DNA of 64,000 nucleotides from Cyanophora paradoxa CCMP329 (Eukaryota; Plantae; Glaucophyta). The translations under genes were made by a program, and so were the position numbers. A model generated the notes under the pieces. It saw only the letters and a list, made by a program, of their open reading frames with translations. It did not search any database and had not been told where the DNA came from. Each line of letters starts with the position of its first letter. The stretch's first letter is position 1. Below are positions 12,694 through 63,941 of the stretch, one piece after another. The DNA lies in NCBI GenBank assembly GCA_004431415.1, contig QPMI01000641.1, positions 62,001 to 126,000 of the forward strand. The letters run 5' to 3'.

Positions 12694-12925
12694 GTGAGAT
12701 CGCAGTTTCTCGCGGTTACAGCTTCCAAGATACAGCTTCTATAACTAGCTCCCGATTCGCTGATATCGATGCACCAGCGGACTTCTATCAAGTTCTATGC
12801 CGCAGTGCGGGCGCGACGCGAAAGGAGTCTCAACATCCTGATCATCTCACGATAAAAAAACCGCAGTTTTTAACTGACTCTTGACTAAACCTGGCTAGCT
12901 GCCGGCCTGCCGTGCGGCGGGGCCC

Positions 12926-39869: not shown

Positions 39870-40089
39870 ATCGATTAACTCGACCCAATTCATCTTTTAA
39901 TGCGCGGTGACTTCGTTAAGTCGGCAGAATGCCTCTTCTCCCACGATTCCGCACGATTCCGCTCGATACACAGTATGAAGACCACTGTACGATCGATTCC
40001 GCTCGATACACAGTAAGAATTCGTCTTTTTTCGCGCGGTGTCTCCCACGATTCACAGTAACTTTTAACCAAAAGTTTAATAAAAATAAA

Positions 40090-41142
40090 TCATGCACGAC
40101 TTCTTAGATTATACTTTCTTCTCACAACATTACTTCGGTTCGGTTTGATTCCTTCTTTCTTCAACCTTTGATTAACTGTATTCGTTTTCTTTACTCTTGT
40201 TATTCGTTTTTGCGATGGAATCTTAATGACTTCATTAACTTTCACTTTCTGTAATTCTTGCTTCTTGAAGCGTCGCTTAACTTCCTTCTCGTCCCCATCC
40301 ATATCTTCCAACACTTTGAATCTATTCCCATCAGACCTTCCAACTTTATAAACCTTTTGACTAAACCTCGCACCTTCCTTTTCAAATGCACTCTTCTTAC
40401 CTTCTAACACTCGAACAGTATCACCTGGTTTAACATCGACTCTCTCATTTCCCTTCACGTTATTATTGTGAACAGTATCCCGAAGGTAAATATATAGTTG
40501 TTTATCTTCGTTAGAATACACTGTATTTGGTGAATCATTCTTCAAGGCACTATGGGGTGAATTGTTATAAATGGCGAGAACTTCGGTCACTAAATCAATC
40601 CACTTACTTGTCCCATTCGATGTCATTGCCTTCCGTAAATACTGCTTGAAAGTCCTGGTGAATCGATCGATAATTCCGAGTTTATCACCAACTGTAATGT
40701 GTTCATCCTTAGCGACATCGGTATACAATCGCACCCCATGTTCTCCACACCAATTGCGATACATTGCGCTGGAAAACTCATTATCTCCCGATAGAGCAGC
40801 AACTTTACCTGCGTCCTGTTTGAATCGATTTAGAATACTTGGGATGTTTTCGTTCGTTTTGAAAGGATACACGAACGCCTTTCTGCTCAGAATATCAACA
40901 AAACTAATCATCTTAAAAATACCATTGTTTGCAGTTTGAAATCCTTTGAAATACATAATATCTACTTGGAATGAACGTGGTTTCGCAACAATCCTTAGGA
41001 ATGATTTAGGCTTTTTCGGTTTCTTGAATATCTGATGCACTTCTGAGTTTAAAAAGCGTTTTTTCAATTCTTCCTCATCAAAGTTTACTTTATCATTAAT
41101 CAATTTCTGGCGATACTTCTTGTAAGATAACACATTATCCAT
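40090..41142 (-). CDS. Retroviral-like (rve) integrase, intact copy, 350 aa
   Basis: FQVDIMYF...SFVDILSRKAFVYP...LSGDNEF...LGIIDRFTRTFKQYL...KWIDLV..V...YNNSPHSAL...P; C-terminal SH3-like PGDTVRV. Confidence 0.9.
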   Translation of the reverse strand: MDNVLSYKKYRQKLINDKVNFDEEELKKRFLNSEVHQIFKKPKKPKSFLRIVAKPRSFQVDIMYFKGFQTANNGIFKMISFVDILSRKAFVYPFKTNENIPSILNRFKQDAGKVAALSGDNEFSSAMYRNWCGEHGVRLYTDVAKDEHITVGDKLGIIDRFTRTFKQYLRKAMTSNGTSKWIDLVTEVLAIYNNSPHSALKNDSPNTVYSNEDKQLYIYLRDTVHNNNVKGNERVDVKPGDTVRVLEGKKSAFEKEGARFSQKVYKVGRSDGNRFKVLEDMDGDEKEVKRRFKKQELQKVKVNEVIKIPSQKRITRVKKTNTVNQRLKKEGIKPNRSNVVRRKYNLRSRA

Positions 41143-44058
41143 TATTGAGCAGCGCAGTTACACCTAATATGTGACAGGAAACAATTTTTGGTAGTATGGG
41201 GCAACGCATTATTGATTCGATCAATAGAAATTACGTTCAGATCGAAGTCCATACCACCATAACAACGAAGACAGTGACCATATTGCTTGCCGTAGCGTTT
41301 CTTGCACCAATCCCAATTGACATACTCCTTCTCGTCATACGGTCTGTTTGCCTTCTTGTCTTGCTCCTTGTACTGCTCAATTCTCTCGCTGAACTTCTTC
41401 ATGTTCACAACGTGTTCTGCCCACTCATACCCATCATGGTAAATCTTCACACGACTTAGCTCGGTAGTTCGGGTGATTGCTGTGTAGAACCATTCCGCAG
41501 AAACGAAGGGCGCACCTGCTTCATAGATCACCACATTACCGCTCTTGCAATCGATTGTATCACCCTGAATCACGTGACAGGTATAAGCGTAAGGAAGTGA
41601 GAAATATCTCATTGCAGGTGGGTCTAATGTGATCACTTCCTTTGTAGCGATATCTTCGATGACGAACTCTTTGTCGTCATATGCCTTGATGGTGTACGTA
41701 AATCCATTGTGAATAGTCACACCATTTTTCACGATCCTTTGCTTTGCGACAATCTCCACACCTTTCGCGAAAATCGGGACATCTTCCCCGTAGTTCAATT
41801 TATGCAATTGCAGGTTGACTTCCGCAGCCTTGCGATTGGTGTAAACGATCGCCCTGTCATCTTTCTCCAAAGTATCGACCGTTTCAAACCTGTACTTTTT
41901 AATGACATCGGGAACACTCAAACGATTCTCGAAGAGATCCTTTTTGATTTCCTCGACAGTGTCACGGTCTTCTTGGGTCTTGTGACGCTTATTAACCTTC
42001 AATACTAACTCGTTCTTGAACAGGAGACGCAGAATGTATGAGTAGTATTCTTTTTGGTCAACCGTCATATCCTGAATGGGCGGATTTTGGTGTGGGTCAC
42101 CTGTGGCGATGTAGACCTTATCCGGGAACAACACTTCCATAATGTATGCAAGCGCCGCCAATTCTGGAACTGTGAATTGACAGATTTCGTCGATAACGAT
42201 GCAGTCGTACTCAACCAATCCGGAAGCATTACCACCCACAATCTCGTCCATGTTCGAATCGTCGACTTTTAGATGCAGAGCATCGTAGATGGTCTTAACA
42301 TTTGCAAGACCATGTTGTAACTTCATGTCGCGAATCCTCTTATTTGTCGGAACAATGAACAGAGGATTTTGGAAACGCTTACCAAACTGAACACCAATGT
42401 AGGTCTTTCCCACTCCTGGAACGACACCTAATATAATCCATCGCTTCTGAGCAGCAAGAGTTTCGCAAATTGCCGTGGTATTATACTCATCAACTACCGA
42501 GTAAATAATGTGATTCGACTTCTCTAATTGCACGAAGTTCTCCTCGCGCTCCAATTTCCCGTAGTGAATGCGCTTGAAATTAAACTCCTTATTGTTCCCG
42601 ATATACTTCTTTGTGAAATTGGGGCAATGCTTGATGCTGAATTCACCAATGTTGTCGTAGCTGTGACGGTCGAAACTCACAAGAGGGATCGGATCACAAG
42701 AGGTCGTGTAGACACAATCAGTATTAACAGAGACTGGATTAAGTCCTTTCTTACTGAGTTCGATGCACTTCTCGTATAGATTCATTCTCATAAGAGAATA
42801 CATGAGATTGTGAAACGGTAGGAACCCATCAGTAAGATACTTTTCTGCTACTTGATTCACATAGTAGATGCACGGTTCTGTGATTTCTTCCTCTGCGATG
42901 ACGTAACAGGTTGGGTCATACGATGCTGGATCTTTACCAAACACGTATGGTTTTACCTCTCCGCCATATTGCTTTTGGAATTCAATCGCATCGTCACGCT
43001 TGTTAAAGATCGTGGTCTTTACTTTGTGGTTCTTCTGTTTTCCTATTTGCCCAATATTAGCAACAAGCATCTGCTTCTTGTCTGTTGGGTCAAGGTCACT
43101 CTCCATGATTTGCTTAATCACGTCGCCTGCATAGTTTGGAACCAATTTATATGGTCGAAGAACCCCCTTAATCGTAATGTCCTCTTTCAGATCCTCGTAG
43201 TATTTTTTGAGAACCATACCTGGGATGACATTGTACCGTGAATCGATAAGCATGCGCTTATAACGGTCGTAGATGTTCAGTTCGTATTTCGTTCCATCTG
43301 CATTTTTCATCGGTTTGAAATACTTCGATTTCAACTGAACGTAGTAGAAGTTGTACTTTTCGATTTCCTCAGCAGAAGTGATCGTGGTCTTCTGGAAATT
43401 ATCGAATTTACTAATTACTGGGACGAATTCAATCTGTTTTGCAATAATTGCAGGATAGGCTTTGCACATGTCGTGTTCGTAGATATTCTCGCTCCACCCA
43501 ATCTCATCAATGGTCTCCTTCTCCAAATCAAAGAACCCGCGCAGGGCAGTCTGTGAACCAATGCGGAACGCTGTTGAAGTTTGGTCATTGTACGTACTCT
43601 TGTTAGCATTGTTAACAAGACTCAGATACATTTTCAGATTGAGCCGCTCGAATTTCTCACGATATTCAGCGTCCTTGAATTTCACCGCATAAGCAGTCTC
43701 CACATCCGTATCTGAACCGGGTGGGGTAACCGTGATGCTCTTCTCACCGTATGTGAAATGAATGTGTGTAATCTTCCGCATTGGGGAGAATCCCGCGTGA
43801 ACCTGGTAGTTCACATCCACAATGAACTCTTTCAGAAGATCGTCCAAGAACCCACTGTAACAGATTGAAATTTTACTCTGGCTCTTCATCTCCTCCGAAT
43901 TGATGATCTTCACGATATCCTCAGGAGTTGCAGCAAATTCTCGATGTTTTCTTTGCTTGATAATCTTGAATCGCGACCCCACCGTAAGATTCGTGTCAGA
44001 GTTTGACTTCGATCCGTTGAAAGAGTGAGTGAGAGATTTGAGATTCTCGTTCAGAAGG
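41142..44058 (-). CDS. 5'-truncated copy of the PolB-SF1 helicase-HNH polyprotein
   Basis: Near-identical to 46880-49795 and uninterrupted. Truncated by the duplication junction just after NGHLY. Confidence 0.85.
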
Positions 44059-45828: not shown

Positions 45829-46880
45829 TCATGCACGACTTCTTAGATTATACTTTCTTCTCACAACATTACTTCGGTTCGGTTTGATTCCTTCTTTCTT
45901 CAACCTTTGATTAACTGTATTCGTTTTCTTTACTCTTGTTATTCGTTTTTGCGATGGAATCTTAATGACTTCATTAACTTTCACTTTCTGTAATTCTTGC
46001 TTCTTGAAGCGTCGCTTAACTTCCTTCTCGTCCCCATCCATATCTTCCAACACTTTGAATCTATTCCCATCAGACCTTCCAACTTTATAAACCTTTTGAC
46101 TAAACCTCGCACCTTCCTTTTCAAATGCACTCTTCTTACCTTCTAACACTCGAACAGTATCACCTGGTTTAACATCGACTCTCTCATTTCCCTTCACGTT
46201 ATTATTGTGAACAGTATCCCGAAGGTAAATATATAGTTGTTTATCTTCGTTAGAATACACTGTATTTGGTGAATCATTCTTCAAGGCACTATGGGGTGAA
46301 TTGTTATAAATGGCGAGAACTTCGGTCACTAAATCAATCCACTTACTTGTCCCATTCGATGTCATTGCCTTCCGTAAATACTGCTTGAAAGTCCTGGTGA
46401 ATCGATCGATAATTCCGAGTTTATCACCAACTGTAATGTGTTCATCCTTAGCGACATCGGTATACAATCGCACCCCATGTTCTCCACACCAATTGCGATA
46501 CATTGCGCTGGAAAACTCATTATCTCCCGATAGAGCAGCAACTTTACCTGCGTCCTGTTTGAATCGATTTAGAATACTTGGGATGTTTTCGTTCGTTTTG
46601 AAAGGATACACGAACGCCTTTCTGCTCAGAATATCAACAAAACTAATCATCTTAAAAATACCATTGTTTGCAGTTTGAAATCCTTTGAAATACATAATAT
46701 CTACTTGGAATGAACGTGGTTTCGCAACAATCCTTAGGAATGATTTAGGCTTTTTCGGTTTCTTGAATATCTGATGCACTTCTGAGTTTAAAAAGCGTTT
46801 TTCAATTCTTCCTCATCAAAGTTTACTTTATCATTAATCAATTTCTGGCGATACTTCTTGTAAGATAACACATTATCCAT
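45829..46880 (-). CDS. rve integrase, second copy (1-nt homopolymer deletion near 46800, likely a sequencing error)
   Basis: Identical to 40090-41142 except for T5 vs T6 at ~46798-46802. Confidence 0.85.
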
Positions 46881-49800
46881 TATTGAGCAGCGCAGTTACA
46901 CCTAATATGTGACAGGAAACAATTTTTGGTAGTATGGGGCAACGCATTATTGATTCGATCAATAGAAATTACGTTCAGATCGAAGTCCATACCACCATAA
47001 CAACGAAGACAGTGACCATATTGCTTGCCGTAGCGTTTCTTGCACCAATCCCAATTGACATACTCCTTCTCGTCATACGGTCTGTTTGCCTTCTTGTCTT
47101 GCTCCTTGTACTGCTCAATTCTCTCGCTGAACTTCTTCATGTTCACAACGTGTTCTGCCCACTCATACCCATCATGGTAAATCTTCACACGACTTAGCTC
47201 GGTAGTTCGGGTGATTGCTGTGTAGAACCATTCCGCAGAAACGAAGGGCGCACCTGCTTCATAGATCACCACATTACCGCTCTTGCAATCGATTGTATCA
47301 CCCTGAATCACGTGACAGGTATAAGCGTAAGGAAGTGAGAAATATCTCATTGCAGGTGGGTCTAATGTGATCACTTCCTTTGTAGCGATATCTTCGATGA
47401 CGAACTCTTTGTCGTCATATGCCTTGATGGTGTACGTAAATCCATTGTGAATAGTCACACCATTTTTCACGATCCTTTGCTTTGCGACAATCTCCACACC
47501 TTTCGCGAAAATCGGGACATCTTCCCGTAGTTCAATTTATGCAATTGCAGGTTGACTTCCGCAGCCTTGCGATTGGTGTAAACGATCGCCCTGTCATCTT
47601 TCTCCAAAGTATCGACCGTTTCAAACCTGTACTTTTTAATGACATCGGGAACACTCAAACGATTCTCGAAGAGATCCTTTTTGATTTCCTCGACAGTGTC
47701 ACGGTCTTCTTGGGTCTTGTGACGCTTATTAACCTTCAATACTAACTCGTTCTTGAACAGGAGACGCAGAATGTATGAGTAGTATTCTTTTTGGTCAACC
47801 GTCATATCCTGAATGGGCGGATTTTGGTGTGGGTCACCTGTGGCGATGTAGACCTTATCCGGGAACAACACTTCCATAATGTATGCAAGCGCCGCCAATT
47901 CTGGAACTGTGAATTGACAGATTTCGTCGATAACGATGCAGTCGTACTCAACCAATCCGGAAGCATTACCACCCACAATCTCGTCCATGTTCGAATCGTC
48001 GACTTTTAGATGCAGAGCATCGTAGATGGTCTTAACATTTGCAAGACCATGTTGTAACTTCATGTCGCGAATCCTCTTATTTGTCGGAACAATGAACAGA
48101 GGATTTTGGAAACGCTTACCAAACTGAACACCAATGTAGGTCTTTCCCACTCCTGGAACGACACCTAATATAATCCATCGCTTCTGAGCAGCAAGAGTTT
48201 CGCAAATTGCCGTGGTATTATACTCATCAACTACCGAGTAAATAATGTGATTCGACTTCTCTAATTGCACGAAGTTCTCCTCGCGCTCCAATTTCCCGTA
48301 GTGAATGCGCTTGAAATTAAACTCCTTATTGTTCCCGATATACTTCTTTGTGAAATTGGGGCAATGCTTGATGCTGAATTCACCAATGTTGTCGTAGCTG
48401 TGACGGTCGAAACTCACAAGAGGGATCGGATCACAAGAGGTCGTGTAGACACAATCAGTATTAACAGAGACTGGATTAAGTCCTTTCTTACTGAGTTCGA
48501 TGCACTTCTCGTATAGATTCATTCTCATAAGAGAATACATGAGATTGTGAAACGGTAGGAACCCATCAGTAAGATACTTTTCTGCTACTTGATTCACATA
48601 GTAGATGCACGGTTCTGTGATTTCTTCCTCTGCGATGACGTAACAGGTTGGGTCATACGATGCTGGATCTTTACCAAACACGTATGGTTTTACCTCTCCG
48701 CCATATTGCTTTTGGAATTCAATCGCATCGTCACGCTTGTTAAAGATCGTGGTCTTTACTTTGTGGTTCTTCTGTTTTCCTATTTGCCCAATATTAGCAA
48801 CAAGCATCTGCTTCTTGTCTGTTGGGTCAAGGTCACTCTCCATGATTTGCTTAATCACGTCGCCTGCATAGTTTGGAACCAATTTATATGGTCGAAGAAC
48901 CCCCTTAATCGTAATGTCCTCTTTCAGATCCTCGTAGTATTTTTTGAGAACCATACCTGGGATGACATTGTACCGTGAATCGATAAGCATGCGCTTATAA
49001 CGGTCGTAGATGATCAGTTCGTATTTCGTTCCATCTGCATTTTTCATCGGTTTGAAATACTTCGATTTCAACTGAACGTAGTAGAAGTTGTACTTTTCGA
49101 TTTCCTCAGCACAAGTGATCGTGGTCTTCTGGAAATTATCGAATTTACTAATTACTGGGACGAATTCAATCTGTTTTGCAATAATTGCAGGATAGGCTTT
49201 GCACATGTCGTGTTCGTAGATATTCTCGCTCCACCCAATCTCATCAATGGTCTCCTTCTCCAAATCAAAGAACCCGCGCAGGGCAGTCTGTGAACCAATG
49301 CGGAACGCTGTTGAAGTTTGGTCATTGTACGTACTCTTGTTAGCATTGTTAACAAGACTCAGATACATTTTCAGATTGAGCCGCTCGAATTTCTCACGAT
49401 ATTCAGCGTCCTTGAATTTCACCGCATAAGCAGTCTCCACATCCGTATCTGAACCGGGTGGGGTAACCGTGATGCTCTTCTCACCGTATGTGAAATGAAT
49501 GTGTGTAATCTTCCGCATTGGGGAGAATCCCGCGTGAACCTGGTAGTTCACATCCACAATGAACTCTTTCAGAAGATCGTCCAAGAACCCACTGTAACAG
49601 ATTGAAATTTTACTCTGGCTCTTCATCTCCTCCGAATTGATGATCTTCACGATATCCTCAGGAGTTGCAGCAAATTCTCGATGTTTTCTTTGCTTGATAA
49701 TCTTGAATCGCGACCCCACCGTAAGATTCGTGTCAGAGTTTGACTTCGATCCGTTGAAAGAGTGAGTGAGAGATTTGAGATTCTCGTTCAGAAGGTACAA

Positions 49801-50964
49801 GTGACCATTTTCGATTTTCACATAGGCGACCGATGGTGTGAGGTGGGTATTCCTCGTTTTGGGTTTGAAAGTGAGTTCAGGTATCTCGGTCTTGTCGTCT
49901 TTGTCGATGGTAACCATCCCGATACGGTAAGGTGACAGAACCTTTTCTACAATTTCCTCAAATGTAAAGCCCCAATCATCACCTTCTACTGGGTCACGTC
50001 CACGAATCATTTTGAATATACCGTTGTGGCTCCAATCAACCGATTTATACTTGCCTTTGGAATTGGCTTTCTGGAACGCTTGGGCGAAGTGCATAACAAG
50101 AACATCAGGAACGCAGCGACCCACTTTGAAGTTGTCACCTCGTACGAAGAGTTCCCCCAATGTCTTTGCTTGTGGGTTGGTCTCAGTTCGCAGATACTTG
50201 GAGATGATCATTGGGGCATGTTGCGAATCCCGTAGTGCTTGCTGTTGTCTCGGTACATACGCTTGATTGTCTGTGGTAATGATTCGCTCGAATGTGACAA
50301 TATCCCCGTAAATATCATTTTGAACTTTAACGAAGAATCGGAAATCACGATTGCCCACATTCGCTTGTGCGATCGCTAACATGAACTCTTGGATATTCTC
50401 AACACCCATCAGAGCTGGGAAGGTATTGAACGTGTTTTTGATTTTGTCAAGTGACTTCAACAGATCCTCTTTCGAACACTGAATCGCGAGAGGTTGGTTA
50501 GTGCTTGTCTTCTTCATCTCGAAGTAGAACATACCGCCATCCTCAACCACATTGGAATTAGCGGGCAGGTTCGGGATCTTATCGGGTGCGATATCCTTGT
50601 AAACTCGGACATGCAGAGCTACCATATTTCCGGGTGAGTTCTGGATATACTCGCGAAGGTTATCCATCATTTCTTGGAAGGGATCCCGACGCTTGCGCTT
50701 CTCACGCTTCTCGATATTCTTAGCCGTCCTCTCCGCCTTTGCCTCCTTCTTCTGTTGCTTACGCTCAAACCGCTGATACAGCGAACGATTGATTTCCCTA
50801 ATGATATCATCCAACTTGTCCTCTCGTGGTCGCTGGTAAGTCACCACATCAAGAAACTCTTCAAACTTCTCACGGTTGATCTTGTCGTCTACAAACGCTT
50901 GCATAGACTTCGCCACAATCTCTTGCTTCTTCTTTCTCAGCCTTAAATTCGATGCTCGCGGCAT
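46880..50964 (-). CDS. Full-length replication polyprotein (~1361 aa after correcting a C3/C4 indel at ~47524): putative TP - OTU-like protease - PolB - SF1 helicase - HNH
   Basis: PolB motifs YEHDMCKAYP, KQMLVANIGQIGK, SVNTDCVY. SF1B helicase motifs GVVPGVGKT, IVIDEICQ, TGDPHQNPPI, YAYTCHVIQGDTI, YTAITR. C-terminal CxxC...SIDRINN...H...NC...C.N. Confidence 0.85.
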
Positions 50965-51200: not shown

Positions 51201-51455
51201 TTAGAAGTAAATGGATGGGCGCCCACGATTAGAATAGGGAACGCCATACAGATACTTGATGTAGCACACAGCGTTAGCGGTGTACTGGCGTTGTGAACTT
51301 TCCATGATTTTCATCGCCCGGTAACATTCATCAGAATTGTAAATCTCAGTCATTTGTTTGGAGAGTTTGGTACTATACTTCTTCAAATACTCCCGTCCTT
51401 TCTCGGTCTTGCGATAGCGGTAAATGGCGCGTTTCTGGGCTTCGCTGATCGGCAT
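51201..51455 (-). CDS. Small basic viral protein (SEAQKRA..Y type, possibly DNA-binding)
   Basis: MPISEAQKRAIYRYRKTEKGREY...; AT-rich, co-oriented with the other viral genes and preceded by the shared promoter motif. Confidence 0.65.
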   Translation of the reverse strand: MPISEAQKRAIYRYRKTEKGREYLKKYSTKLSKQMTEIYNSDECYRAMKIMESSQRQYTANAVCYIKYLYGVPYSNRGRPSIYF

Positions 51456-51770: not shown

Positions 51771-52208
51771 TTAACGCCTATATCCGGGACGTAGACCCAA
51801 TTTAGCGAACCCCGAAACCATCGGCGCCGCATTGGAAATCGAGTTAAGTGGGTCAGATTGCGATGTAGCCACCCTCAGGATAGATTTATTAAGCACCGGC
51901 AAATCGGTTTTGTTCGATTCCTGATAATCGATAGTCTTAGCGATTAATTCAGTCGGTGATTCCTTGACAACCTTAATGGGATCAGGTAGCACATCAAAAG
52001 TAACTTCGGGTTTCTTCTCTACCTTCTCTTTGGTTATAGGTTGCTCTTTGATCTTCTTCTCTTTTTGTGTCTCATCAGCGATTCCCTCAATGAGACTTTT
52101 AGCGTGTTGGTATGTGATCGTTTTTAGACCGCCTGTTACCGCTCTAATAAAGTAACGGTTGCGGTGGTCTTTCTCAGAATAGGTTGAGTATAGACGTTCA
52201 CCGCCATC
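51771..52208 (-). pseudogene. 3' half of a transposon-disrupted Lys-rich viral gene
   Basis: Joins in frame with 62674-63006 across the TSD: ...LLKLLDG|GERLYSTYSEK..., giving a 254-aa protein. Confidence 0.88.
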
Positions 52209-52240
52209 TATATCTGCACTTTTGGAGTATTGCAATACCT

Positions 52241-52591
52241 TCGACAGAATCTGCGACAGAATCAGTCGATAAAATTCGACAGAATCGGTCGACCGATTCT
52301 GTCGCAGAATCAGTCGATCGACTGATTCTGTCGATCGACTGATTTTGTCGACCGATTCTGTCGCAGAATCAGTCGATAAAATTCGACTGATTCGGTCGAC
52401 CGATTCTGGCGCAGAATCAGTCGATCGACAGAGTTGGTCGATCGACTGATTTTGTCGACCGATTCTGTCGCAGAGTCAGTCGATAAAATTCGACAGAATC
52501 GGTCGACCGATTCTGTCGCAGAATCAGTCGATCGACTGATTCTGTCGATCGACTGATTTTGTCGACCGATTCTGTCGCTGAGTCTGTCGAT
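52241..52591. repeat. Left subterminal array, 107-bp period, built of TCGA-cored palindromic subunits
   Basis: GATAAAATTCGA recurs at 52268, 52375 and 52482. Confidence 0.9.
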
Positions 52592-53404
52592 CTGTTGTGT
52601 TTTTATTTTATTATACTTTCAACCTAATCTGCCGATCCATATCTTAATTATAATAAGCCAGTTTTATATATATTCTTAATAATTTGTGGCCTGGCCCTAG
52701 GCCTAGGCCTCGCCTGCGCATGCTGCATGCGCCTGCTGTCTACGCGTACGTATACTGGGGTCCTGAATCCTGATCGATATATATATAATATATACTCTCT
52801 CGGGCCCAGGCCAGGCGCCTGCCCGGCTCCAGCAATCCAGCAGGCCCCGGGCGCGCCTTGTGCCCATCTGCCTCTGGTTGCTCTGCAGTCTAGAACTAGA
52901 GACCGGCGGACTGTAAATTTAGCTATAGGCAGCACATCAACACTGAATCATGCAGCGTGGGGCCTAGCACGAGCAGGCTGAAGGGAGAGGTACTAGGGAT
53001 TCACATGTAGTACTAGTAATTAACTAGTAAGGGCGAGTCATAAGCCGGAGGATAACGGGTGAAGCGATGCGGCCCGCACCAGGTCGTTCTGCACCTCGCC
53101 GCGCTCGCTGCGCCATGCATCGCGGTGAGCGAGAGCTCGAATCGAATGGAAAGAGGCAACGCCGGCACGCAGGCGGATATGCATGCGCACCTCGGCGAGG
53201 AGAGGAGAGGGAGAGGAGAGCACGAAAGCGGCTCTCCTAGGGCGCCCGGCAGCCCACGACCGCGACCGCTGATGGCAAGGGCGACGCGCTCGCTGCGCTT
53301 GGAGAGTCAATCGAAAGAAAAGAAGCGTCCGCGCCGGCGAACGACCGCACCTCGGCCCGAGAGGCCGAAAGCATGATCTCCGAGGCGCCCGGCAGCCCGC
53401 GACC

Positions 53405-53436
<32 letters not shown>

Positions 53437-55139
53437 CTCGCTGCGCTCGGATCGAAAGAGAAGAAATATGCGCGACAGCAAACGACCGCACCTGCGCCCG
53501 AGCGGCCGCAAGCATGAACTCCGAGGCCGATCCCAGCAGCCACCGGGCCACACGTCCGGAAAGCGGCACGCGCTGCGCTGCGCACGCCGCCGGCGTTACA
53601 ACAAGATCAAAGGGCGAGCAGTGGAGACAAGAGCGAGCACCTGGCCTGCGGAAGAAGGCGCCGGGCGAACTGGGCGGTGGTGTTCTGCTCGCGGGGACCA
53701 GTCACGCCCGCTCCCTGGCCCGCCAGCGAAATGAGGGATTGAATCAAAGGAGAGGAAACGAAAAGCACCTTGCTTCGCCTCCGCAGCCGCCGCCTACGTT
53801 CCGCGCGTGCCTGTCAGCGGCAGAACGCCCACTGGCGACAGCCGCGGGAGGAATGGACAAAAAAGGCAACAAGGAGGTCGACAGCGATGCGTTCGCGAGC
53901 GTTCGCGGCCGCAACCGGGCGCCAGCCACCCTGAAGCAGCGCTCTGCGTTTGAAATCAGGCGGGCGACAGGCGGCGAGAGGCGCCAGAGGATGCAAGAGA
54001 GGACCTTCGAGCATCGTTCGCGCTGGAAGCCGACGAAGTTCGCCGCGGCGGCAGCAAGTCCGTTCGACCTGGTTTGAAAAGCGGAATCAGAGACGCGGGC
54101 AGCGCTGCGAGACCCCGGAGGAGCCAACGAACCGAGCCGTTGTGAGAGTGAAGCGCGTCCGCGCGGCAGCCTTCAGTCGAGGCTGCAGCTGCTGGCAGCA
54201 AGGCACATGAAGGCGCTTCAAGGCAGCAAGTTTGGGGTACACGACTGTTGGGAAAAGCCTTGTGAGGCCCACAGCGGCAGGGCCGCCGCGGCAGCCGCGC
54301 CGTAGTATAGCTTTCCGAAGCCGCCTGAAGCGATTGCCAACGGCTCGACCTGGCCCTCGGTCCAGAGCGCCTCCCGCTGCGGCACCTTCGCGCGTGCTCG
54401 CAGCACGCAGCGCGAGGCAGCTACAAGCACGTGAGCTTGTAACCATGGGTCCAGCTCCCCCCGTAGCGTCGTCCCTGCGCCGCGCCGATCCACAGCTAGA
54501 TCGACGTCGACCAGCTGCAGGCCCGCAACCCCGCGCTGGGTGACTTCGCCGTGCTGGCCGGGCTCTTAAGCTTTGCGTGGCTTTCAGCTCACTTACATCC
54601 GCAGTATCTCTACCAGACAGCCCCGCGGTCGATTTGGAGGGTTGAGGTGCACACCGGCCGGCGGAGCTCTCTCACATGTTTCGGTTCATAGCGCGTCCTC
54701 TAAGATGCTCACGCAGTGCCTCTGACTCTGGACTGGCCGGGCGCTGCGTGAGCGCGCGGACCGACGCAACCTCCCGATCGGCGGTCGCCTCGGGTGCGCC
54801 TACCAAGCACAGCATTTGGCCAGCGACGCGCGAGCGCGTAGCTGACGAGGCCCAGATCGCCAGGATGGGTGAGCCGCCTCGGATCGTCGCAGTTTGGGAG
54901 ACATTCTTCTACACTGCCTAGGTGAGCCGGCTGGGCCCGTGCGCGTCGCTGACAGGACGCGTACGCGTCGCTGACGGGGCGCGCCGGTAACACAGGATAC
55001 CGGAAGACGCCGCGTGAAGCCCAGGGGCTGGGGTGCGGCGGGTGGCGACGCCGCTCGCGGGGCGGGGCGGATCCGGAGGCGCGGCAGGCGGCCGCGTGAA
55101 TTCCAGGATAGGGCGGAGGCGCTTCCTGCGGCGCTGCAG

Positions 55140-56220
55140 CTCGCGGAGGCGGGCGGGCGGCCGGAGGCGCGGCGCGTGGCGGCGCGGCTCGCCGGGCGGG
55201 GCAGAGGCGCGGCGGGCGGCCGCACGGCTCGCCAGGCGGGCCGGAGGCGCGGCGGGTGGCGTCGGCGGCTCGCCGGGCGGGGCGGAGGCGCGGCAGGCGG
55301 CGGAGGCAGCTTGCCGGGCCGGGCGGAGGCGCGGCGGGCGGCCGCGAGGCTCCGCTGGGCGGGGCGGAGGCGCGGCGGGCGGCGGCGAGGCTCGCCAGGT
55401 GGGCCGGGGGCGCGGCGGGCGGCGGCGCGGCTCGCGGAGCGGGATGGATCCTCGCGGGCGGCGGCGAGGCTCGCCGGGCGGGGCAGACGCTCGGCGGGCG
55501 GCCGCGCGCCTCGCGGGCCGGGGCGGAGGCGCGGCGGGCGGCGGCGCGCCTCGCTGGGCGGGGCGGAGGCGTGGCGGGCGGCGGCGGCGGCTCGCGGGGC
55601 GGGATGGAGGCGCAGCAAGCGGCGTCGGCGGCTCGCCGGGCGGGGCGGAGGCGCGGCAGGCGGCGGAGGCAGCTTGCCGGGCCGGGCGGAGGCGCGGCGG
55701 GCGGCCGCGAGGCTCCGCTGGGCGGGGCGGAGGCGCGGCGGGCGGCGGAGGCGGCTCGCGGGGCGGGACGGAGGCGCGGCGGGCGGCGGCGGCGGCTCGC
55801 GGACCGGGGCAGACGCTCGGCGGGCGGCCGCGCGGCTCGCCAGGCGGGCCGGGGGCGCGGCGGGCGGCGGCGCGGCTCGCCGGGCGGGCAGGGGGCGCGG
55901 CGGGCGGCGGCGCGGCTCGCCGGGCCGGGCGGAGGCGCAGCGGGCGGCCGCGAGGCTCCGCTGGGCGGGGCGGAGGCGCGGCGGGCGGCGTCGGCGGCTC
56001 GCCGGGCGGGGCCGAGGCGCGGCAGGCGGCGGAGGCAGCTCGCCGGGCCGGGCGGAGGCGGGGCGGGCGGCGCGCGGCTCGCTGGGCGGCCGGAGGCGCG
56101 GCGCGCTGCGGCGCGACTCGCCGGGCGGGGCAGAGGGGCGGCGGGCGGCGGTGCGCAGGCGCGGCGGCCGGCTGCGCGGCTCGCGGGGCAGGGCGGAGGA
56201 GTGGCGCGGCGGAGGCTCGT
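55140..56220. repeat. GC-rich ~40-bp minisatellite (GGCGGAGGCGCGGCGGGCGGCGGCGCGGCTCGCCGGGCG-like); mirrored at ~58235-59710
   Basis: Dozens of degenerate units are visible. The array is longer in the right arm. Confidence 0.85.
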
Positions 56221-56278
56221 GGGGAAGCCTGCAGATGCTCGCTCTGTACCGTAGTACTCTTGCGTAGATCATCGGATA

Positions 56279-58226
56279 TGCACCCCGCCCATTTCGAGGG
56301 TGGGAAATCCGAATCTGAAGTTCTCGTCAGCTCGTCCGTTCTCATATGCTCAGCGCGGCGACTTCGCACTTCTTTGCACATGATCATGATCATGAGTCTC
56401 TAGCTGCCATTAAAAGAATACTGGGTTCCTGGCACATGTAAGCACCCGGAGATGATATCAGCGCCCCACTGTGTATCTGTAGAGTATTTGACGAGAAGCT
56501 CAGGGCTCCCGGGCATTGCGGCGGGGAAGAACGACTCCCTTATAGGGTTTCTCCCGAGATCAATTTTGAGAGCCGATTCCCAGTCCGCCCGTGCCTTTCC
56601 AGCTCAGATGCCAACGGATACGAGTCATTTGATAGCGTGTTAGATAGGGCCTCAACGTGATTACCGGCTGCCGGGCTTCTATTCGCATTTCCTGGCGCGC
56701 GGGAAGGCCTCAAAATGCCCGCCAAAAATAATGGCGACTTGCCCTGCAAAATAATGCACGGCACGCTACGAGCTAGCTTGCGGCCTGCGCCGACCTCAAA
56801 ATCAAATCCAGCACTGTCAAGAACCCCCGAAAGCGTCTCATCGTCCGGATGTAACTTGTCAGATAAGATGCTATCCTTGGTGATTTCTGTCCTTGAGGCC
56901 TCTTTGGGGCAAGTTGACAGTCTCGGAGAGCTCGCTTGACCTGACGCCGCTCCGTCATCTTGGTCCGCGACTGACTCCACATTTGCACCCCGCCCATTTC
57001 GAGGGTGGGGAATCCGAATCTGAAGTTCTCGTCAGCTCGTCCGTTCTCATATGCTCAGCGCGGCGACTTCGCACTTCTTTGCACATGATCATGATCATGA
57101 GTCTCTAGCTGCCATTAAAAGAATACTGGGTTCCTGGCACATGTAAGCACCCGGAGATGATATCAGCGCCCCACTGTGTATCTGTAGAGTATTTGACGAG
57201 AAGCTCAGGGCTCCCGGGCATTGCGGCGGGGAAGAACGACTCCCTTATAGGGTTTCTCCCGAGATCAATTTTGAGAGCCGATTCCCAGTCCGCCCGTGCC
57301 TTTCCAGCTCAGATGCCAACGGATACGAGTCATTTGATAGCGTGTTAGATAGGGCCTCAACGTGATTACCGGCTGCCGGGCTTCTATTCGCATTTCCTGG
57401 CGCGCGGGAAGGCCTCAAAATGCCCGCCAAAAATAATGGCGACTTGCCCTGCAAAATAATGCACGGCACGCTACGAGCTAGCTTGCGGCCTGCGCCGACC
57501 TCAAAATCAAATCCAGCACTGTCAAGAACCCCCGAAAGCGTCTCATCGTCCGGATGTAACTTGTCAGATAAGATGCTATCCTTGGTGATTTCTGTCCTTG
57601 AGGCCTCTTTGGGGCAAGTTGACAGTCTCGGAGAGCTCGCTTGACCTGACGCCGCTCCGTCATCTTGGTCCGCGACTGACTCCACATTTGCACCCCGCCC
57701 ATTTCGAGGGTGGGGAATCCGAATCTGAAGTTCTCGTCAGCTCGTCCGTTCTCATATGCTCAGCGCGGCGACTTCGCACTTCTTTGCACATGATCATGAT
57801 CATGAGTCTCTAGCTGCCATTAAAAGAATACTGGGTTCCTGGCACATGTAAGCACCCGGAGATGATATCAGCGCCCCACTGTGTATCTGTAGAGTATTTG
57901 ACGAGAAGCTCAGGGCTCCCGGGCATTGCGGCGGGGAAGAACGACTCCCTTATAGGGTTTCTCCCGAGATCAATTTTGAGAGCCGATTCCCAGTCCGCCC
58001 GTGCCTTTCCAGCTCAGATGCCAACGGATACGAGTCATTTGATAGCGTGTTAGATAGGGCCTCAACGTGATTACCGGCTGCCGGGCTTCTATTCGCATTT
58101 CCTGGCGCGCGGGAAGGCCTCAAAATGCCCGCCAAAAATAATGGCGACTTGCCCTGCAAAATAATGCACGGCACGCTACGAGCTAGCTTGCGGCCTGCGC
58201 CGACCTCAAAATCAAATCCAGCACTG
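56279..58226. repeat. 705-bp tandem repeat, ~2.8 copies, forming the loop of the foldback
   Basis: Identical ORFs at 56452, 57157 and 57862 (period 705). Confidence 0.95.
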
Positions 58227-61200
58227 AGAGCCTAGTGCCCGCCCGCCGCACCTCTGCCCCGCCCGGAGAGCCGCGCCTCCGCCCCGCCCGGCGAGCCGCC
58301 GACGCCGCTTGCTGCGCCCCCGGCCCGCCTTGCGAGCCGTGCGGCCGCCCGCCGCGCCTCTGCCCCGCCCGGCGAACCGCGCCGCCGCCCGCCGCGCCCC
58401 GGCCCGCCTGGCGAGCCGCGCGGCCGCCCGCCGAGCGTCTGCCCCGGTCTGCGAGCCGCCGCCGCCGCCCGGCCGCGCCTCCGTCCCACCCCACGAGCCG
58501 CGCCATAGCCCGCCGCGCCTTCGCCCCGCCCGGCGAGCTGCCTCCGCCGCCCGCCGCGCCTCCGCCCGCACGGCGGAGCCCCGCCGCCGCCCGCCGCGCC
58601 ACATTCTCGCCCGGCGAGCCGCGCCGCCGCCCGCCGCGCCCCCGGCCCGCCTGGCGAGCCGCACGGCCGCCCGCCGCGCCTCCGTCCCGCCCCGCGAGCC
58701 GCCGCCGCCGCCCGCCGCGCCTCCGCCCCGCCCAGCCGAGCCTTGCGGCCGCCCGCCGCGCCTCCGCCCCGCCCAGCGGAGCCTCGCGGCCGCCCGCCGC
58801 GCCTCCGCCTGGCCCGGCGAGCTGCCTCCGCCTCCTGCCGCGCCTCCGTCACGCCTCGCGAGCCGCGCCGCCGCCCGCCGCGCCCACGGCCCACCTGGCG
58901 AGCCTCGCCGCCGCCCGCCGCGCCACAGTCTCGCCCGGAGAGCCGCGCCGCCGCCCGCCGCGCCCCCGGCCCGCCCGGCGAGCCGCGCCGCCGCCCGCCG
59001 CGCCCCCGGCCCGCCTGGCGAGCCGCGCGGCCGCCCGCCGAGCGTCTGCCCCGGTCCGCGAGCCGCCGCCGCCGCCCGCCGCGCCTCCGTCCCGCCCCGC
59101 GAGCCGCCTCCGCCGCCCGCCGCGCCTCCGCCCCGCCCAGCGGAGCCTCGCGGCCGCCCGCTGCGCCTCCGCCCGGCCCGGCGAGCTGCCTCCGCCGCCT
59201 GCCGCGCCTCCGCCCCGCCCGGCGAGCCGCCGACGCCGCTTGCTGCGCCTCCATCCCGCCCCGCGAGCCGCCGCCGCCGCCCGCCGCGCCTCCGCCCCGC
59301 CCAGCGAGGCGCGCCGCCGCCCGCCGCGCCTCCGCCCCGGCCCGCGAGGCGCGCGGCCGCCCGCCGAGCGTCTGCCCCGCCACTCGCCGCCGCCCGCGAG
59401 GATCCATCCCGCTCCGCGAGCCGCGCCGCCGCCCGCCGCGCCCCGGCCCACCTGGCGAGCCTCGCCGCCGCCCGCCGCGCCTCCGCCCCGCCCAGCGGAG
59501 CCTCGCGGCCGCCCGCCGCGCCTCCGCCCGGCCCGGCAAGCTGCCTCCGCCGCCTGCCGCGCCTCCGCCCCGCCCGGCGAGCCGCCGACGCCACCCGCCG
59601 CGCCCCCGGCCCGCCTGGCGAGCCGTGCGGCCGCCCACCGCGCCTCTGCCCCGCCCGGCGAGCCGCGCCGCCACGTGCCGCGCCTCCGGCCGCCCGCCCG
59701 CCTCCGCGAGCTGCAGCGCCGCAGGAAGCGCCTCCGCCCTATCCTGGAATTCACGCGGCCGCCTGCCGCGCCTCCGGATCCGCCCCGCCCCGCGAGCGGC
59801 GTCGCCAACCACCGCACCCCAGCCCATGGGCTTCACGCGGCGTCTTCCGGTATCCTGTGTTACCGGCGCGCCCCGTCAGCGACGCGTACGCGTCCCGTCA
59901 GCGACGCGAACGGGCCCAGCCGGCTCACCTAGGCAGTGTAGAAGAATGTCTCCCAAACAGCGACGATCCGAGGCGGCTCACCCATCCTGGCGATCTGGGC
60001 CTCGTCAGCTACGCGCTCGCGCGTCGCTGGCCAAATGCTGTGCTTGGCAGGCGCACCCGAGGCGACCGCCGATCGGGAGGTTGCGTCGGTCCGCGCGCTC
60101 ACGCAGCGCCCGGCCAGTCCAGAGTCAGAGGCACTGCGTGAGCATCTTAGAGGGACGCGCTATGAACCGAAACATGTGAGAGAGCTCCGCCGGCCGGCGT
60201 GCACCTCAACCCTCCAAATCGACCGCGGGGCTGTCTGGTAGAGATACTGCGGATGTAAGTGAGCTGAAAGCCACGCAAAGAACCCGGCCAGCACGGCGAA
60301 GTCACCCAGCGCGGGGTTGCGGGCCCGGTCGATCTAGCTGTGGATCGGCGCGGCGCAGGGACGACGCTACGGGGGGAGCTGGACCCATGGTTACAAGCTC
60401 ACGTGCTTGTAGCTGCCTCGCGCTGCGTGCTGCGAGCACGCGCGAAGGTGCCGCAGCGGGAGGCGCTCCGGACCGAGGGCCAGGTCGAGCCGTTGGCAAT
60501 CGCTTCAGGCGGCCTTGAAAAGCTGTACTGCGGCACGGGCCGCCGCGGCGGCCCTGCCGCTGTGGGCCTCATAAGGCTTTTCCCAACAGTCGTGTACCCC
60601 AAACTTGCTGCCTTGAAGCGCCTTCATGTGCCTTGCTGCCAGCAGCTGCAGCCTCGACTGTAGGCTGCCGCGCGAACGCGCTTCACTCTCACAGCGGCTC
60701 GGTTCGTTGGCTCCTCCGGGGTCTCGCAGCGCTGCCCGCGTCTCTGATTCCGCTTTTCAAACCAGGTCGAACGGACTTGCTGCCGCCGCAGCGAACTTCG
60801 TCGGCTTCCAGCGCGAACGATGCTCGAAGGTCCTCTCTTGCATCCTCTGGCGCCTCTCGCCGCCTGTCGCCCGCCTGATTTCAAACGCAGAGCGCTGCTT
60901 CAGGGTGGCTGGCGCCCGGTTGCGGCCGCGAACGCTCGCGAACGCATCGCTGTCGACCTCCTTGTTGCCTTTTTTGTCCATTCCTCCCGCGGCTGTCGCC
61001 AGTGGGCGTTCTGCCGCTGACAGGCACGCGCGGAACGTAGGCGGCGGCTGCGGAGGCGAAGCAAGGTGCTTTTCGTTTCCTCTCCTTTGATTCAATCCCT
61101 CATTTTGCTGGCGGGCCAGGGAGCGGGCGTGACTGGTCCCCGCGAGCAGAACACCACCGCCCAGTTCGCCCGGCGCCTTCTTCCGCAGGCCAGGTGCTCG

Positions 61201-62299
61201 CTCTTGTCTCCACTGCTCGCCCTTTGATCTTGTTGTAACGCCGGCGGCGTGCGCAGCGCAGCGCGTGCCGCTTTCCGGACGTGTGGCCCGTGGCTGCTGG
61301 GATCGGCCTCGGAGTTCATGCTTGCGGCCGCTCGGGCGCAGGTGCGGTCGTTTGCTGTCGCGCATATTTCTTCTCTTTCGATCCGAGCGCAGCGAGCTCT
61401 TCGCCCTCGCCCTCGCCCTCGCGGTCGCGGTCGCGGGCTGCCGGGCGCCTCGGAGATCATGCTTTCGGCCGCTCGGGCCGAGGTGCGGTCGTTCGCCGGC
61501 GCGGACGCTTCTTTTCTTTCGATTGACTCTCCAAGCGCAGCGAGCGCGTCGCTCTCGCCATCAGCGGACGCGGAGCGATCGCAAGCTGATCTTCTGCCTC
61601 CTCTCCTCGCCGAGGTGCATAGCCGCCTGCGTGCCGGCCTTTTCCTCTTTCCATTCGATTTAAGCTCTCGCTCACCGCGATGCGCATGGCGCAGCGAGGG
61701 CGGCGAGGTGCAGAACGACCTGGTGCGGGCCGCATCGCTTCACCCGTTATCCTCCAGCTTCTGACTCGCCCTTTGTTGCCTAGCAACTAGGGACGAACGA
61801 CTAATTGAAGCCGCGCGCGAGCGGACGGCGTCGGGCTGGAGTGCGTGCGGCTGCATCCGGGGCCAGGGTAGGGTTTATATTTGCAGGACTAGGCAGGGCT
61901 AGGCCAGAGTAGGGATCATATTTGCGATGTGACAGCATGTATGCATAGGTGTGTGCATGCAGATCATGAATTAGGCGGCCCGCACGATATGTGAAAATAG
62001 GTGGCCTGCAGATCAACTAATTTATATAGATGCAAAAAGCCAATGCCAGATGTACATGTGTTCTGGCCCGCCTATAGCTAGTCATGGGCCGTCAGGGCCT
62101 ATATATAGCTATATAGGCTATAGTGTAGCTGACCTATGCCTGTGCATGCGACCTGCAGCTGGATCCCCCGGAGATCCTCCACTAGTACTGGCTCAATATT
62201 TATACAAGATAATATACAAATCAATAATCTTAATATGAAGAATATTAATCAATTTATCGACAAACCTGGCGATATATCAATATATATTAATATATCAAG

Positions 62300-62643
62300 T
62301 ATCGACAGATTTTGTCGACCGATTCTGTCGCAGAGTCTGTCGATAAAATTCGACAGAATCGGTCGACCGATTCTGGCGCAGAATCAGTCGATCGACAGAG
62401 TTGGTCGATCGACTGATTTTGTCGACCGATTCTGTCGCAGAGTCAGTCGATAAAATTCGACTGATTCGGTCGACCGATTCTGGCGCAGAATCAGTCGATC
62501 GACAGAGTTGGTCGATCGACTGATTTTGTCGACCGATTCTGTCGCAGAGTCAGTCGATAAAATTCGACTGATTCGGTCGACCGATTCTGGCGCAGAATCA
62601 GTCGATCGACTGATTCTGTCGATCGACTGATTCTGTCGACCAA
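62300..62643. repeat. Right subterminal array, 107-bp period
   Basis: GATAAAATTCGA at 62342, 62449 and 62556. Confidence 0.9.
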
Positions 62644-62673
62644 GTATTGCAATACTCCAAAAGTGCAGATATA

Positions 62674-63038: not shown

Positions 63039-63941
63039 TTACATATTACGGGAGAACGGCAAGTAAACGCCTTCTAACTCTTTTATGACGTTTTTCAATG
63101 CCTTCTTTGTCAGATCCTTGTCATCTTGTGTTATCAGTTCAAGAGTCATCGACCAATCAGTGGTAATATCGGTTTCTACACCATTCCAATACGTGAGACG
63201 CACTTTCAGTGTTTCAACTTCTACTTCCCCATTCTGCTCATGCAAGATCATAGAGTTATTCGATGAATCATATTTCAGAAGACTACCTACCGTTTGGTCG
63301 ATCTCAATTTTAGCAAGCGCTTTATCGTCGCTGGTGTTCTTGCTTACGTAATTGCCTTTGAAGGGGTCAACATGTAGAAGGATGTAAGAATTGAACAGAA
63401 GATCAAGTGGTATTACGCTATCGACGTAATGGTTGTAAGTGATTGAACCAATCTCAACTGGCGCATCAAGTGGAGCGGAAGCATAACCATTTTCCGAACT
63501 TGCAGGTGTAAGATCAGGGAAACCAAGGAAGTTCGCTAAGATCCTACTACCAAATCGTAGGTTAAATACTGCATCCGACATGAACCTTAGAGATATGGTA
63601 ACAGGATCGTATGTCACATGGAAATGGCGAGTGTAGGTAGTTCCAACTGCACCATATGACTGTGAGGCGAGTTTTGCATTTAGTAGATTCACCAAACTAT
63701 CTGTTGTGTATGTACCTTTCGTAATAATATTACTTCTGGTCTTAATCACATTTGCAGCATCGTAAGTAGATGTAATGAGCGTTCCATTTTCGCTGAGATT
63801 GTAGATGTTGTTGAACATTTCGAAATTGGTAACGCGACACGCTTTAACCTTCTGGATTGCATGGGGAAGTTTGTAAGTAAAGTTTGTTGGGGTTCCATCA
63901 TCTCGGTCTCTGGAATCAATATTAAGATAATGACGCGTCAT
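63039..63941 (-). CDS. Putative minor capsid (penton, single jelly-roll) protein
   Basis: N-terminal YLNIDSRDRD.G.P.NF.YKLP and C-terminal LAKI...LKVRLTYWNG...DWSMTLEL, typical of PLV/NCLDV penton-like proteins. Confidence 0.75.
   Translation of the reverse strand: MTRHYLNIDSRDRDDGTPTNFTYKLPHAIQKVKACRVTNFEMFNNIYNLSENGTLITSTYDAANVIKTRSNIITKGTYTTDSLVNLLNAKLASQSYGAVGTTYTRHFHVTYDPVTISLRFMSDAVFNLRFGSRILANFLGFPDLTPASSENGYASAPLDAPVEIGSITYNHYVDSVIPLDLLFNSYILLHVDPFKGNYVSKNTSDDKALAKIEIDQTVGSLLKYDSSNNSMILHEQNGEVEVETLKVRLTYWNGVETDITTDWSMTLELITQDDKDLTKKALKNVIKELEGVYLPFSRNM

What the first reader, a model, noticed from the sequence alone, without database searches (positions are those of the whole stretch)
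46880..50964. Multi-domain viral replication polyprotein: putative terminal protein + OTU-like protease + exonuclease-less PolB + SF1 helicase + HNH nuclease
Seen in one ORF, in order: a basic helical N-terminus; a Cys/His pair (GRCVPD, Cys at ~50114; ENGHLY, His at ~49802); PolB palm motifs A/B/C (DMCKAYP, KQMLVANIG, NTDC); a complete RecD/Pif1-like SF1B helicase; and a CxxC...SIDRINN...H...NC..C HNH-like tail. Established: protein-primed PolBs of polinton-type viruses have a terminal protein-vOTU-PolB layout. Inference: no DxE proofreading-exonuclease motif is recognisable and motif C is NTD rather than DTD, while both catalytic Asp are kept. The protein looks like an all-in-one, possibly low-fidelity replisome with its own helicase and nuclease that may self-cleave. 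This is not the classical Maverick or mavirus arrangement.
Basis: partly seen in the sequence, partly recalled or inferred. Interest (0 to 1): 0.85.

Follow-up and report, generated by a model that had tools for sequence, protein, structure and literature searches.

The report
Known viral polymerase-helicase fusion gene
This is the large DNA-copying gene of a virus-like element lodged in a likely protist genome; it is predicted to join a protease, a DNA polymerase, a helicase and a nuclease-like tail in one protein, a layout that virologists described in 2016 and 2024, so it is a distant new member of a known family and not a new kind of enzyme.

Summary
In the window the gene is split by a one-base gap near 47523. 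A second copy in the window and 4 of 4 sequencing runs carry the missing base, so the native gene is one 1,361-codon ORF. Folding supports an OTU protease (res 257-395), a phi29-like protein-primed polymerase (427-881) and an SF1B helicase; relatives' tails match HNH families. 13 of 18 relatives (19-30% identity) carry all landmark residues in one chain. This is the 'Tlr1-like helicase' / pPolB-S1H fusion of polinton-like viruses (PMC5499653, PMC11161782), including lost proofreading, the altered motif C and the HNH tail. An RVE integrase follows directly. Small additions: a shrunken, apparently dead exonuclease remnant (weak fold match), a motif-B Asn-to-Val change not seen in any relative (17 of 18 keep Asn), a PacI-like nuclease site, and the same fusion in a virophage contig. 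The terminal protein is unconfirmed, and I found no paper testing activity. This scan has noted the same family on other DNA.

The parts
46880..50964 (-). pPolB-S1H ('Tlr1-like helicase') fusion gene, 1361 codons natively; one-base assembly gap near 47523 in the window
50680..50964 (-). Basic, helical N-terminal region (res 1-95); variable among relatives, function unassigned
   Evidence: pLDDT mostly under 50
50215..50679 (-). Middle alpha/beta domain (res 96-250), the position of the terminal-protein equivalent in the published family; fold not confirmed
   Evidence: low confidence; position from PMC11161782 section 9
49780..50196 (-). vOTU cysteine-protease domain (res 257-395), Cys284 and His388
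   Evidence: top 18 rows all OTU or viral OTU-type proteases, best Z 7.2, rmsd 2.7, 97 aligned; Cys 14 of 14, His 15 of 15 covering relatives
49285..49689 (-). Probable shrunken, inactive exonuclease-domain remnant (res ~426-560)
   Evidence: row 33: res 426-507 on phi29 polymerase 5-188, Z 3.9, 74 aligned (weak); alignment to phi29 starts at res 427; no invariant acidic column
48322..49284 (-). Protein-primed family B polymerase palm (res ~561-881): Asp586, Tyr591, Lys718, Gly726, Asp837; motif-B Asn replaced by Val722
47150..48234 (-). SF1B (RecD/Pif1/Dda-like) helicase, res ~911-1270 (low coordinate approximate)
46883..47137 (-). HNH (His-Me finger) tail with D-R-x6-H site and CxxC/HxxC zinc ligands
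45829..46880 (-). RVE integrase directly downstream (its ATG overlaps the upstream stop, TAATG); one-base assembly gap near 46797 in this copy
39870..44058 (-). Second, 5'-truncated copy (99.9% identical to 45609-49795): fusion gene from res ~391 to the stop in one frame, plus intact 350-aa integrase (40090-41142)
52209..62673 (.). GC-rich 10.5-kb insertion with 30-bp terminal inverted repeats and 6-bp target duplication, interrupting an ORF of the element (62674-63006 / 51771-52208); other copies lack it
63039..63941 (-). 300-aa ORF of the same low-GC element; possibly minor capsid protein (recalled look of the motifs; not confirmed)
   Evidence: E about 0.01 against a 3-sequence profile

Best explanation
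This is one 1,361-residue gene of an integrated polinton-like element, and its product is predicted to be a pPolB-S1H ('Tlr1-like helicase') replicase that likely cuts off its own terminal protein, primes at the ends of the excised linear genome and copies DNA behind its own helicase. Shown: single ORF, conserved residues, neighbouring integrase, 40-44% GC island in a 73% GC host region. Predicted by folding: OTU domain, phi29-like palm, SF1B helicase. Inferred from the published model: (1) the vOTU Cys284/His388 pair cleaves between the middle domain and itself, freeing a priming protein; (2) the palm, with Asp586 and Asp837, extends from that primer without proofreading, the exonuclease having decayed to a scaffold; (3) the 5'-3' helicase supplies strand separation; (4) the HNH tail is a captured homing-type domain that binds or nicks DNA and is probably not essential (absent in 1 of 18 relatives, replaced by GIY-YIG in Tlr1); (5) the integrase inserts new copies. 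Odds: family assignment about 0.9; polymerase active in this lineage about 0.65; self-cleavage about 0.6; nuclease active about 0.4.
For: One ORF. Folds: phi29 polymerase top 9 PDB rows, best E 2e-8; Z 14.4 over res 427-881, and Dda Z 15.4 over 911-1125; protein-primed polymerases, mavirus among them, lead the named viral matches; Atlas PF03175 score 0.94; OTU best Z 7.2, with four of the PDB chains that the 2024 supplement lists for Tlr1 and transpoviron vOTUs at Z 5.1-6.5. Relatives: 13 of 18 carry Cys, His, both Asp, Walker A Lys, motif VI Arg and tail His in one chain of 1063-1485 aa. RVE follows the gene in 3 of 5 IMG/VR loci. Selection: 23 of 29 variant codons synonymous against 21% expected. 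Literature.
Against: No Tlr1, transpoviron or TvV-S1 sequence could be fetched, so there is no direct alignment or tree with named members. Motif-B Asn is Val in this element (17 of 18 relatives keep Asn), and reads show no variant there. The terminal-protein region is unresolved. OTU Z of 7.2 is within the range the tool calls common, and Foldseek gave no match at E 0.001 for that model. The window's own tail scores only E 0.053 to an HNH family. About 200 residues separate vOTU His from motif A, whereas the paper calls vOTU proximal to the palm. No capsid or packaging gene is confirmed inside the window.
Confidence: 0.8

Rival explanations
1. Same family, but the palm is catalytically dead (the 2016 view). 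The protein would serve as helicase and end-binding scaffold while a host or giant-virus polymerase copies the DNA.
For: Motif B lacks the Asn (Val722) and the Tyr; motif C lacks its first Asp; no exonuclease motifs. PMC5499653 argued for inactivation. No biochemical paper found (0 papers).
Against: Asp586 16 of 16, Tyr591 16 of 16, Lys718 17 of 17, Asp837 18 of 18 at 19-30% overall identity. PMC11161782 notes active polymerases that lack the same Asp. Variant codons in the palm region are too few to test it separately.
Confidence: 0.2
2. An independent fusion, a separate lineage that only resembles Tlr1-like helicases and still keeps part of the exonuclease domain.
For: Exonuclease-like remnant between vOTU and palm; no named member could be aligned; relatives are mostly unnamed metagenomic proteins. 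An independent helicase-pPolB fusion exists in Oxyrrhis, in reverse order.
Against: Identical order, size range, SF1B type, motif-C change and HNH tail as described. The 2016 paper already allowed that the unannotated N-terminal part derives from the exonuclease. The best viral fold match is one 999-aa protein aligned over 1089 columns, E 9e-25 (unnamed in the tool).
Confidence: 0.08
3. The gene is a broken pseudogene, or uses a programmed frameshift to make the helicase C-terminus and HNH tail optional.
For: The window copy is split near 47523 and its integrase near 46797; the second copy is 5'-truncated; a 10.5-kb insertion breaks a nearby ORF.
Against: Both gaps are in homopolymer runs, are absent from the second copy and from 4 of 4 runs at full depth; relatives are single chains; variants are mostly synonymous; insertion-free copies exist in 4 of 4 runs. 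This particular locus may still be immobilised by the insertion.
Confidence: 0.03

Closest known systems
Tlr1-like helicases = pPolB-S1H fusion proteins of polinton-like viruses, Tetrahymena Tlr1 and transpovirons (PMC5499653; PMC11161782)
   Same: 1000-1400 aa single chain; variable N-terminus, middle domain, vOTU with Cys/His, protein-primed palm without working exonuclease, first Asp of motif C lost, SF1B helicase, C-terminal HNH (PLVs). Like Tlr1, paired with an RVE integrase.
   Different: Only 19-30% identical to its nearest retrieved relatives; motif-B Asn replaced by Val; a ~135-residue exonuclease-like remnant lies between vOTU and palm, which the passages I read do not mention for this family (figures not seen); HNH rather than Tlr1's GIY-YIG; second zinc site HxxC instead of CxxC.
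Mavirus pPolB (TP-vOTU-PALM)
   Same: vOTU, exonuclease reduced to a remnant, first Asp of motif C missing, RVE integrase, genome integration; fold match E 2.5e-8.
   Different: Mavirus has a separate SF3 helicase gene and no fused SF1 helicase or HNH tail.
Classical Polinton/Maverick pPolB (TP-vOTU-EXO-PALM)
   Same: vOTU plus protein-primed palm next to an RVE integrase.
   Different: Polintons keep an active exonuclease and have no fused SF1 helicase.
Oxyrrhis marina OmPLV Helicase SF1-pPolB (PMC12721341)
   Same: SF1 helicase and pPolB in one large protein of an endogenous PLV.
   Different: Helicase is N-terminal, exonuclease complete, no vOTU found; an independent fusion.
PacI-type His-Me finger nucleases (group 20 in PMC5714182)
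   Same: D-R in place of the usual D-H; best PDB match of the tail profile is PacI, E 0.089.
   Different: PacI has Tyr in the loop; this family has His at the aligned position (17 of 17). The match is weak and activity is untested.

Membership tests
pPolB-S1H (Tlr1-like helicase) | Single chain of about 1000-1400 aa with the SF1 helicase in the C-terminal part | tested here: met
   1361 codons once the assembly gap is recognised; second copy reads through
pPolB-S1H (Tlr1-like helicase) | SF1B (Pif1/RecD-type) helicase domain | tested here: met
   Pfam AAA_19 E 1e-5; profile hits RecD2 E 9e-9, Dda; Dda Z 15.4; Walker A/B, motif III, VI residues 18 of 18
pPolB-S1H (Tlr1-like helicase) | Family B palm of the protein-primed type upstream of the helicase | tested here: met
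   phi29 polymerase is the top PDB match; protein-primed polymerases lead the named BFVD rows; PF03175
pPolB-S1H (Tlr1-like helicase) | TPR1 and TPR2 subdomains | tested here: inconclusive
   beta-rich inserts lie between motifs A-B and B-C and the phi29 alignment spans them, but they were not superposed one by one
pPolB-S1H (Tlr1-like helicase) | No functional exonuclease domain; first Asp of motif C lost | tested here: met
   no invariant acidic column in res 426-560 (best: Asp 10 of 16 at 437); position 835 is Asp in 0 of 18 relatives
pPolB-S1H (Tlr1-like helicase) | vOTU with catalytic Cys and His upstream of the palm | tested here: met
   Z only 7.2, but 28 of the top 30 rows are OTU-type by their titles or viral OTU-like proteases, the others being prostaphopain B and staphopain C
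pPolB-S1H (Tlr1-like helicase) | Middle alpha/beta domain at the terminal-protein position | tested here: inconclusive
   strands and helices predicted at res 95-240 but pLDDT mostly under 50
pPolB-S1H (Tlr1-like helicase) | C-terminal HNH or GIY-YIG domain | tested here: met
   4 of 4 relatives' tails scanned hit phage endonuclease VII/HNH families, best E 6e-10; window tail E 0.053; tail residues conserved 16-17 of 17
pPolB-S1H (Tlr1-like helicase) | Phylogenetic placement in the Tlr1/PLV/transpoviron clade | not testable with these tools
   no named reference sequence could be fetched
Catalytically active pPolB palm (activity, not membership) | Motif A Asp/Tyr, motif B Lys-x3-Asn, motif C second Asp | tested here: inconclusive
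   Asp586, Tyr591, Lys718, Asp837 kept; Asn replaced by Val722
Polinton-like virus (whole element) | [quoted passage not shown] | not testable with these tools
   window ends inside the element and no genome is held; candidate minor capsid ORF unconfirmed; related locus L002 has A32 ATPase E 1e-10 and a weak capsid hit
Polinton-like virus (whole element) | Integrase and terminal inverted repeats | tested here: inconclusive
   RVE integrase present; left end near 45421-45463, right end outside the window, so no pair of repeats to compare
Classical Polinton/Maverick pPolB | Intact exonuclease motifs, no fused helicase | tested here: not met
Mavirus-type pPolB | Stand-alone TP-vOTU-PALM with separate SF3 helicase gene | tested here: not met
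   SF1B helicase is fused in frame

The most novel reading that the evidence does not exclude
This clade is a caught-in-the-act intermediate between polinton polymerases and Tlr1-like helicases: it keeps a shrunken, dead exonuclease domain between vOTU and palm, ends in a PacI-like nuclease that uses a loop histidine as its base, moves between polinton-like viruses and virophages, and in this element copies DNA without the otherwise near-invariant motif-B asparagine while still under purifying selection.
Probability: 0.25. Interest if true: 0.45.

Novelty: new member of a known kind. Interest (0 to 1): 0.22.

Why it matters
As architecture it adds little: it was described in 2016 and completed in 2024. 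Its value is as material. Whether these fusions are active polymerases was argued both ways (2016 inactive, 2024 active) and my search found no biochemical test. This element has an intact gene, evidence of purifying selection, and a natural motif-B variant, so it would be a useful though not unique test case. The exonuclease remnant, if real and general, would refine how the family arose.

Tried and rejected
Programmed frameshift or pseudogene: rejected by the second copy and reads. Whole 1165-aa query found 0 relatives among 7532 candidates; the helicase-HNH region found 12 among 7995 and a profile 1 more among 7987. DNA-pattern scans with the window protein found none in viral or metagenome contigs, nor with the integrase or P0011; only the four-relative alignment worked (5 of 136 candidates). 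Sequence search of PDB with the single protein: nothing. Pfam and PHROGs do not detect the palm or OTU in the window protein. Foldseek on the res 245-555 model: no match at E 0.001. Phage collection: no match. No RNA holder listed, which says nothing on expression. Depth figures of contigs were not used as copy numbers. The minor-capsid guess for 63039-63941 stayed unconfirmed. The name of the best BFVD hit H6WBE3 was not found in papers; my recollection that it may be a transpoviron protein is unverified. No Pfam family in 56 ORFs of the flanks and insertion. The 1.84-billion-protein profile search never left the queue, so family size is not measured. Searches for an exonuclease remnant in print returned only the 2024 paper, about mavirus; its figures and the supplements of PMC13215967 were not seen and may show the remnant.
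Full report
Observation. The coordinates hold a start codon at 50964 and a stop ending at 46880 on the minus strand, but in the window they are not one frame: 47467-50964 gives 1165 aa and 46880-47497 lies in another frame. A second copy, 39870-44058, is 99.9% identical to 45609-49795 over 4189 bases with two gaps and two mismatches. Both gaps are homopolymer runs one base shorter in the finding's copy, one in this gene near 47523 and one in the downstream integrase near 46797. Contigs of 4 of 4 public DNA runs carry both bases at the full depth of the place. The native gene is therefore one ORF of 1361 codons.

Setting. The gene lies in a 40-44% GC island; the host part 1-31000 is 73% GC and 3 of 103 long frames there hit eukaryotic families (RLL, WW, SURF2), so the host is a GC-rich eukaryote, by inference a protist. 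An RVE integrase starts where the gene stops (Pfam rve E 0.0017, below its cut-off; 25-26% identical to integrases with E 1e-10 in related loci). A 10.5-kb GC-rich insertion with 30-bp inverted ends and a 6-bp target duplication splits a further ORF; contigs of 4 of 4 runs join across the empty site. The element runs off the window, and no genome is held, so capsid genes could not be checked.

Relatives. The whole N-terminal ORF found none; the helicase-tail region found 12 proteins, a profile one more, and a four-protein alignment five IMG/VR loci. All 18 were aligned with both window frames; identity to the window is 19-30%. Cys284 is kept in 14 of 14 that cover it, His388 15 of 15, Asp586 16 of 16, Lys718 17 of 17, Asp837 18 of 18, Walker A Lys 18 of 18, tail His 17 of 17. 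Thirteen of 18 hold all seven landmarks in one chain; of the other five, four lack the N-terminal part and one lacks the tail. The only host-named one is from the dinoflagellate Fugacium kawagutii. RVE follows the gene in L001-L003 (3 of 5). L002 has an A32 ATPase and a weak capsid hit; L005 has Sputnik-type major and minor capsid proteins.

Folds. A model of res 1-1165 (15 sequences, mean pLDDT 67) matches phi29 polymerase best (E 2e-8; Z 14.4, rmsd 5.2, 358 aligned, res 427-881) and Dda, RecD2 and Pif1 helicases (Z 15.4, res 911-1125). Named viral matches are led by protein-primed polymerases. A model of res 245-555 searched against 48,161 chains gave OTU-type proteases in 28 of the top 30 rows and staphopains in the other two, best Z 7.2. 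That Z is modest and Foldseek found nothing at E 0.001, but four chains (8c83, 7y5m, 6ks5, 4a5u) are the ones listed at Z 5.1-6.5 for Tlr1 and transpoviron vOTUs in the supplement of PMC11161782. Res 426-507 align to phi29 residues 5-188, its exonuclease domain by my recall of the numbering, with Z 3.9 over 74 residues; glyoxalase folds score 3.8-4.0 on overlapping residues, so this is weak. No acidic column there is invariant. The N-terminal 250 residues are not resolved.

Tail. Relatives' tails match phage endonuclease VII and HNH families (best E 6e-10), the window's own only at E 0.053. The usual Asp-His is Asp-Arg (Arg 17 of 17). The best PDB match of the tail profile is PacI (E 0.089), whose loop Tyr aligns with the conserved His; reviews state that PacI uses a loop Tyr in place of the catalytic His. 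Activity is thus plausible but unshown.

Against a fully active polymerase: the motif-B Asn, kept in 17 of 18 relatives, is Val722 here, and reads list no variant at that codon. For function of the gene as a whole: of 38 variant rows, 31 fall in the gene (7 outside were dropped); they touch 29 codons, 23 synonymous, against 21% expected for random changes (binomial p 2e-11; sites are linked and transitions are favoured, so the figure is overstated).

Mechanism. Committed reading: a self-processing, protein-primed replicase without proofreading, with a built-in 5'-3' helicase, working on the excised linear element, with the integrase inserting copies. Shown are the ORF, residues and neighbours; predicted are the folds; cleavage, priming, synthesis and nuclease action are inferred from the published model.

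What is known. PMC5499653 (read: parts 1-3 of 5) describes 1000-1400-aa proteins with a polymerase domain lacking exonuclease, altered motif 3, SF1 helicase and C-terminal HNH in PLVs. PMC11161782 (passages, sections 9 and 10, supplement text passages; figures not seen) adds vOTU and the TP position, predicts activity and names them pPolB-S1H. PMC13215967 (passages and section 7) finds such fusions in many endogenous elements; PMC12220804, 10.64898/2026.06.19.733378, PMC12721341 and 10.64898/2026.07.28.741278 were seen as passages only, as were PMC5714182 and PMC4081073. A search for biochemical tests returned 0 papers. Three earlier notes of this scan report the same family on other genomes; they came after my reading and are not counted as evidence.

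Verdict. Real feature, correct domain reading, known architecture. New member of a known kind; interest 0.22.

Noticed in passing
window 52209-62673: Insertion with 30-bp terminal inverted repeats, 6-bp target duplication, 107-bp tandem repeats just inside both ends (in the same orientation), a 3.1-kb inner inverted repeat of 41-bp GC-rich units (53029-56186 / 58667-61773) and three 705-bp units in the centre; no Pfam hit in the frames scanned (the long GC-repeat frames were left out). A 6-bp duplication would fit an RVE-type integrase (recalled); a 4-bp reading with 31-bp ends fits the letters too. Empty sites exist in 4 of 4 runs.
   Followed up: partly
window 38701-44239 and 44253-49795: Tandem duplication of a 1.17-kb flank plus the left part of the element; the left copy lacks 188 bp at the element end and stops at about residue 391, with a 151-156-bp duplication at the junction. 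The 188-bp skip is seen in 4 of 4 runs and a back-joint at the unit start in 2 of 4.
   Followed up: partly
L005:200-3190 with 6539-9626: The same polymerase-helicase-HNH fusion sits in a contig with Sputnik-type capsid proteins (E 2e-77), i.e. in a virophage; the passages I read list other replicases for virophages.
   Followed up: partly
window 46880 and 41142: Stop of the fusion gene overlaps the integrase start (TAATG), which may couple their translation.
   Followed up: no
window 40090-41142: The integrase has Asp where three related integrases have the third catalytic-position Glu (assignment of the triad recalled).
   Followed up: no
window 51201-51455: 84-aa basic ORF upstream of the fusion gene on the same strand, no confident family.
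   Followed up: no
window 31000-38700: 7.7 kb at 58% GC between host genes and the element, with no Pfam hit in the frames scanned; origin unknown.
   Followed up: partly
window 1813-2349, 5341-6027, 12898-14235: Host exons matching RLL/RTRAF, WW and SURF2 families in a very GC-rich region full of CCCCG runs.
   Followed up: no
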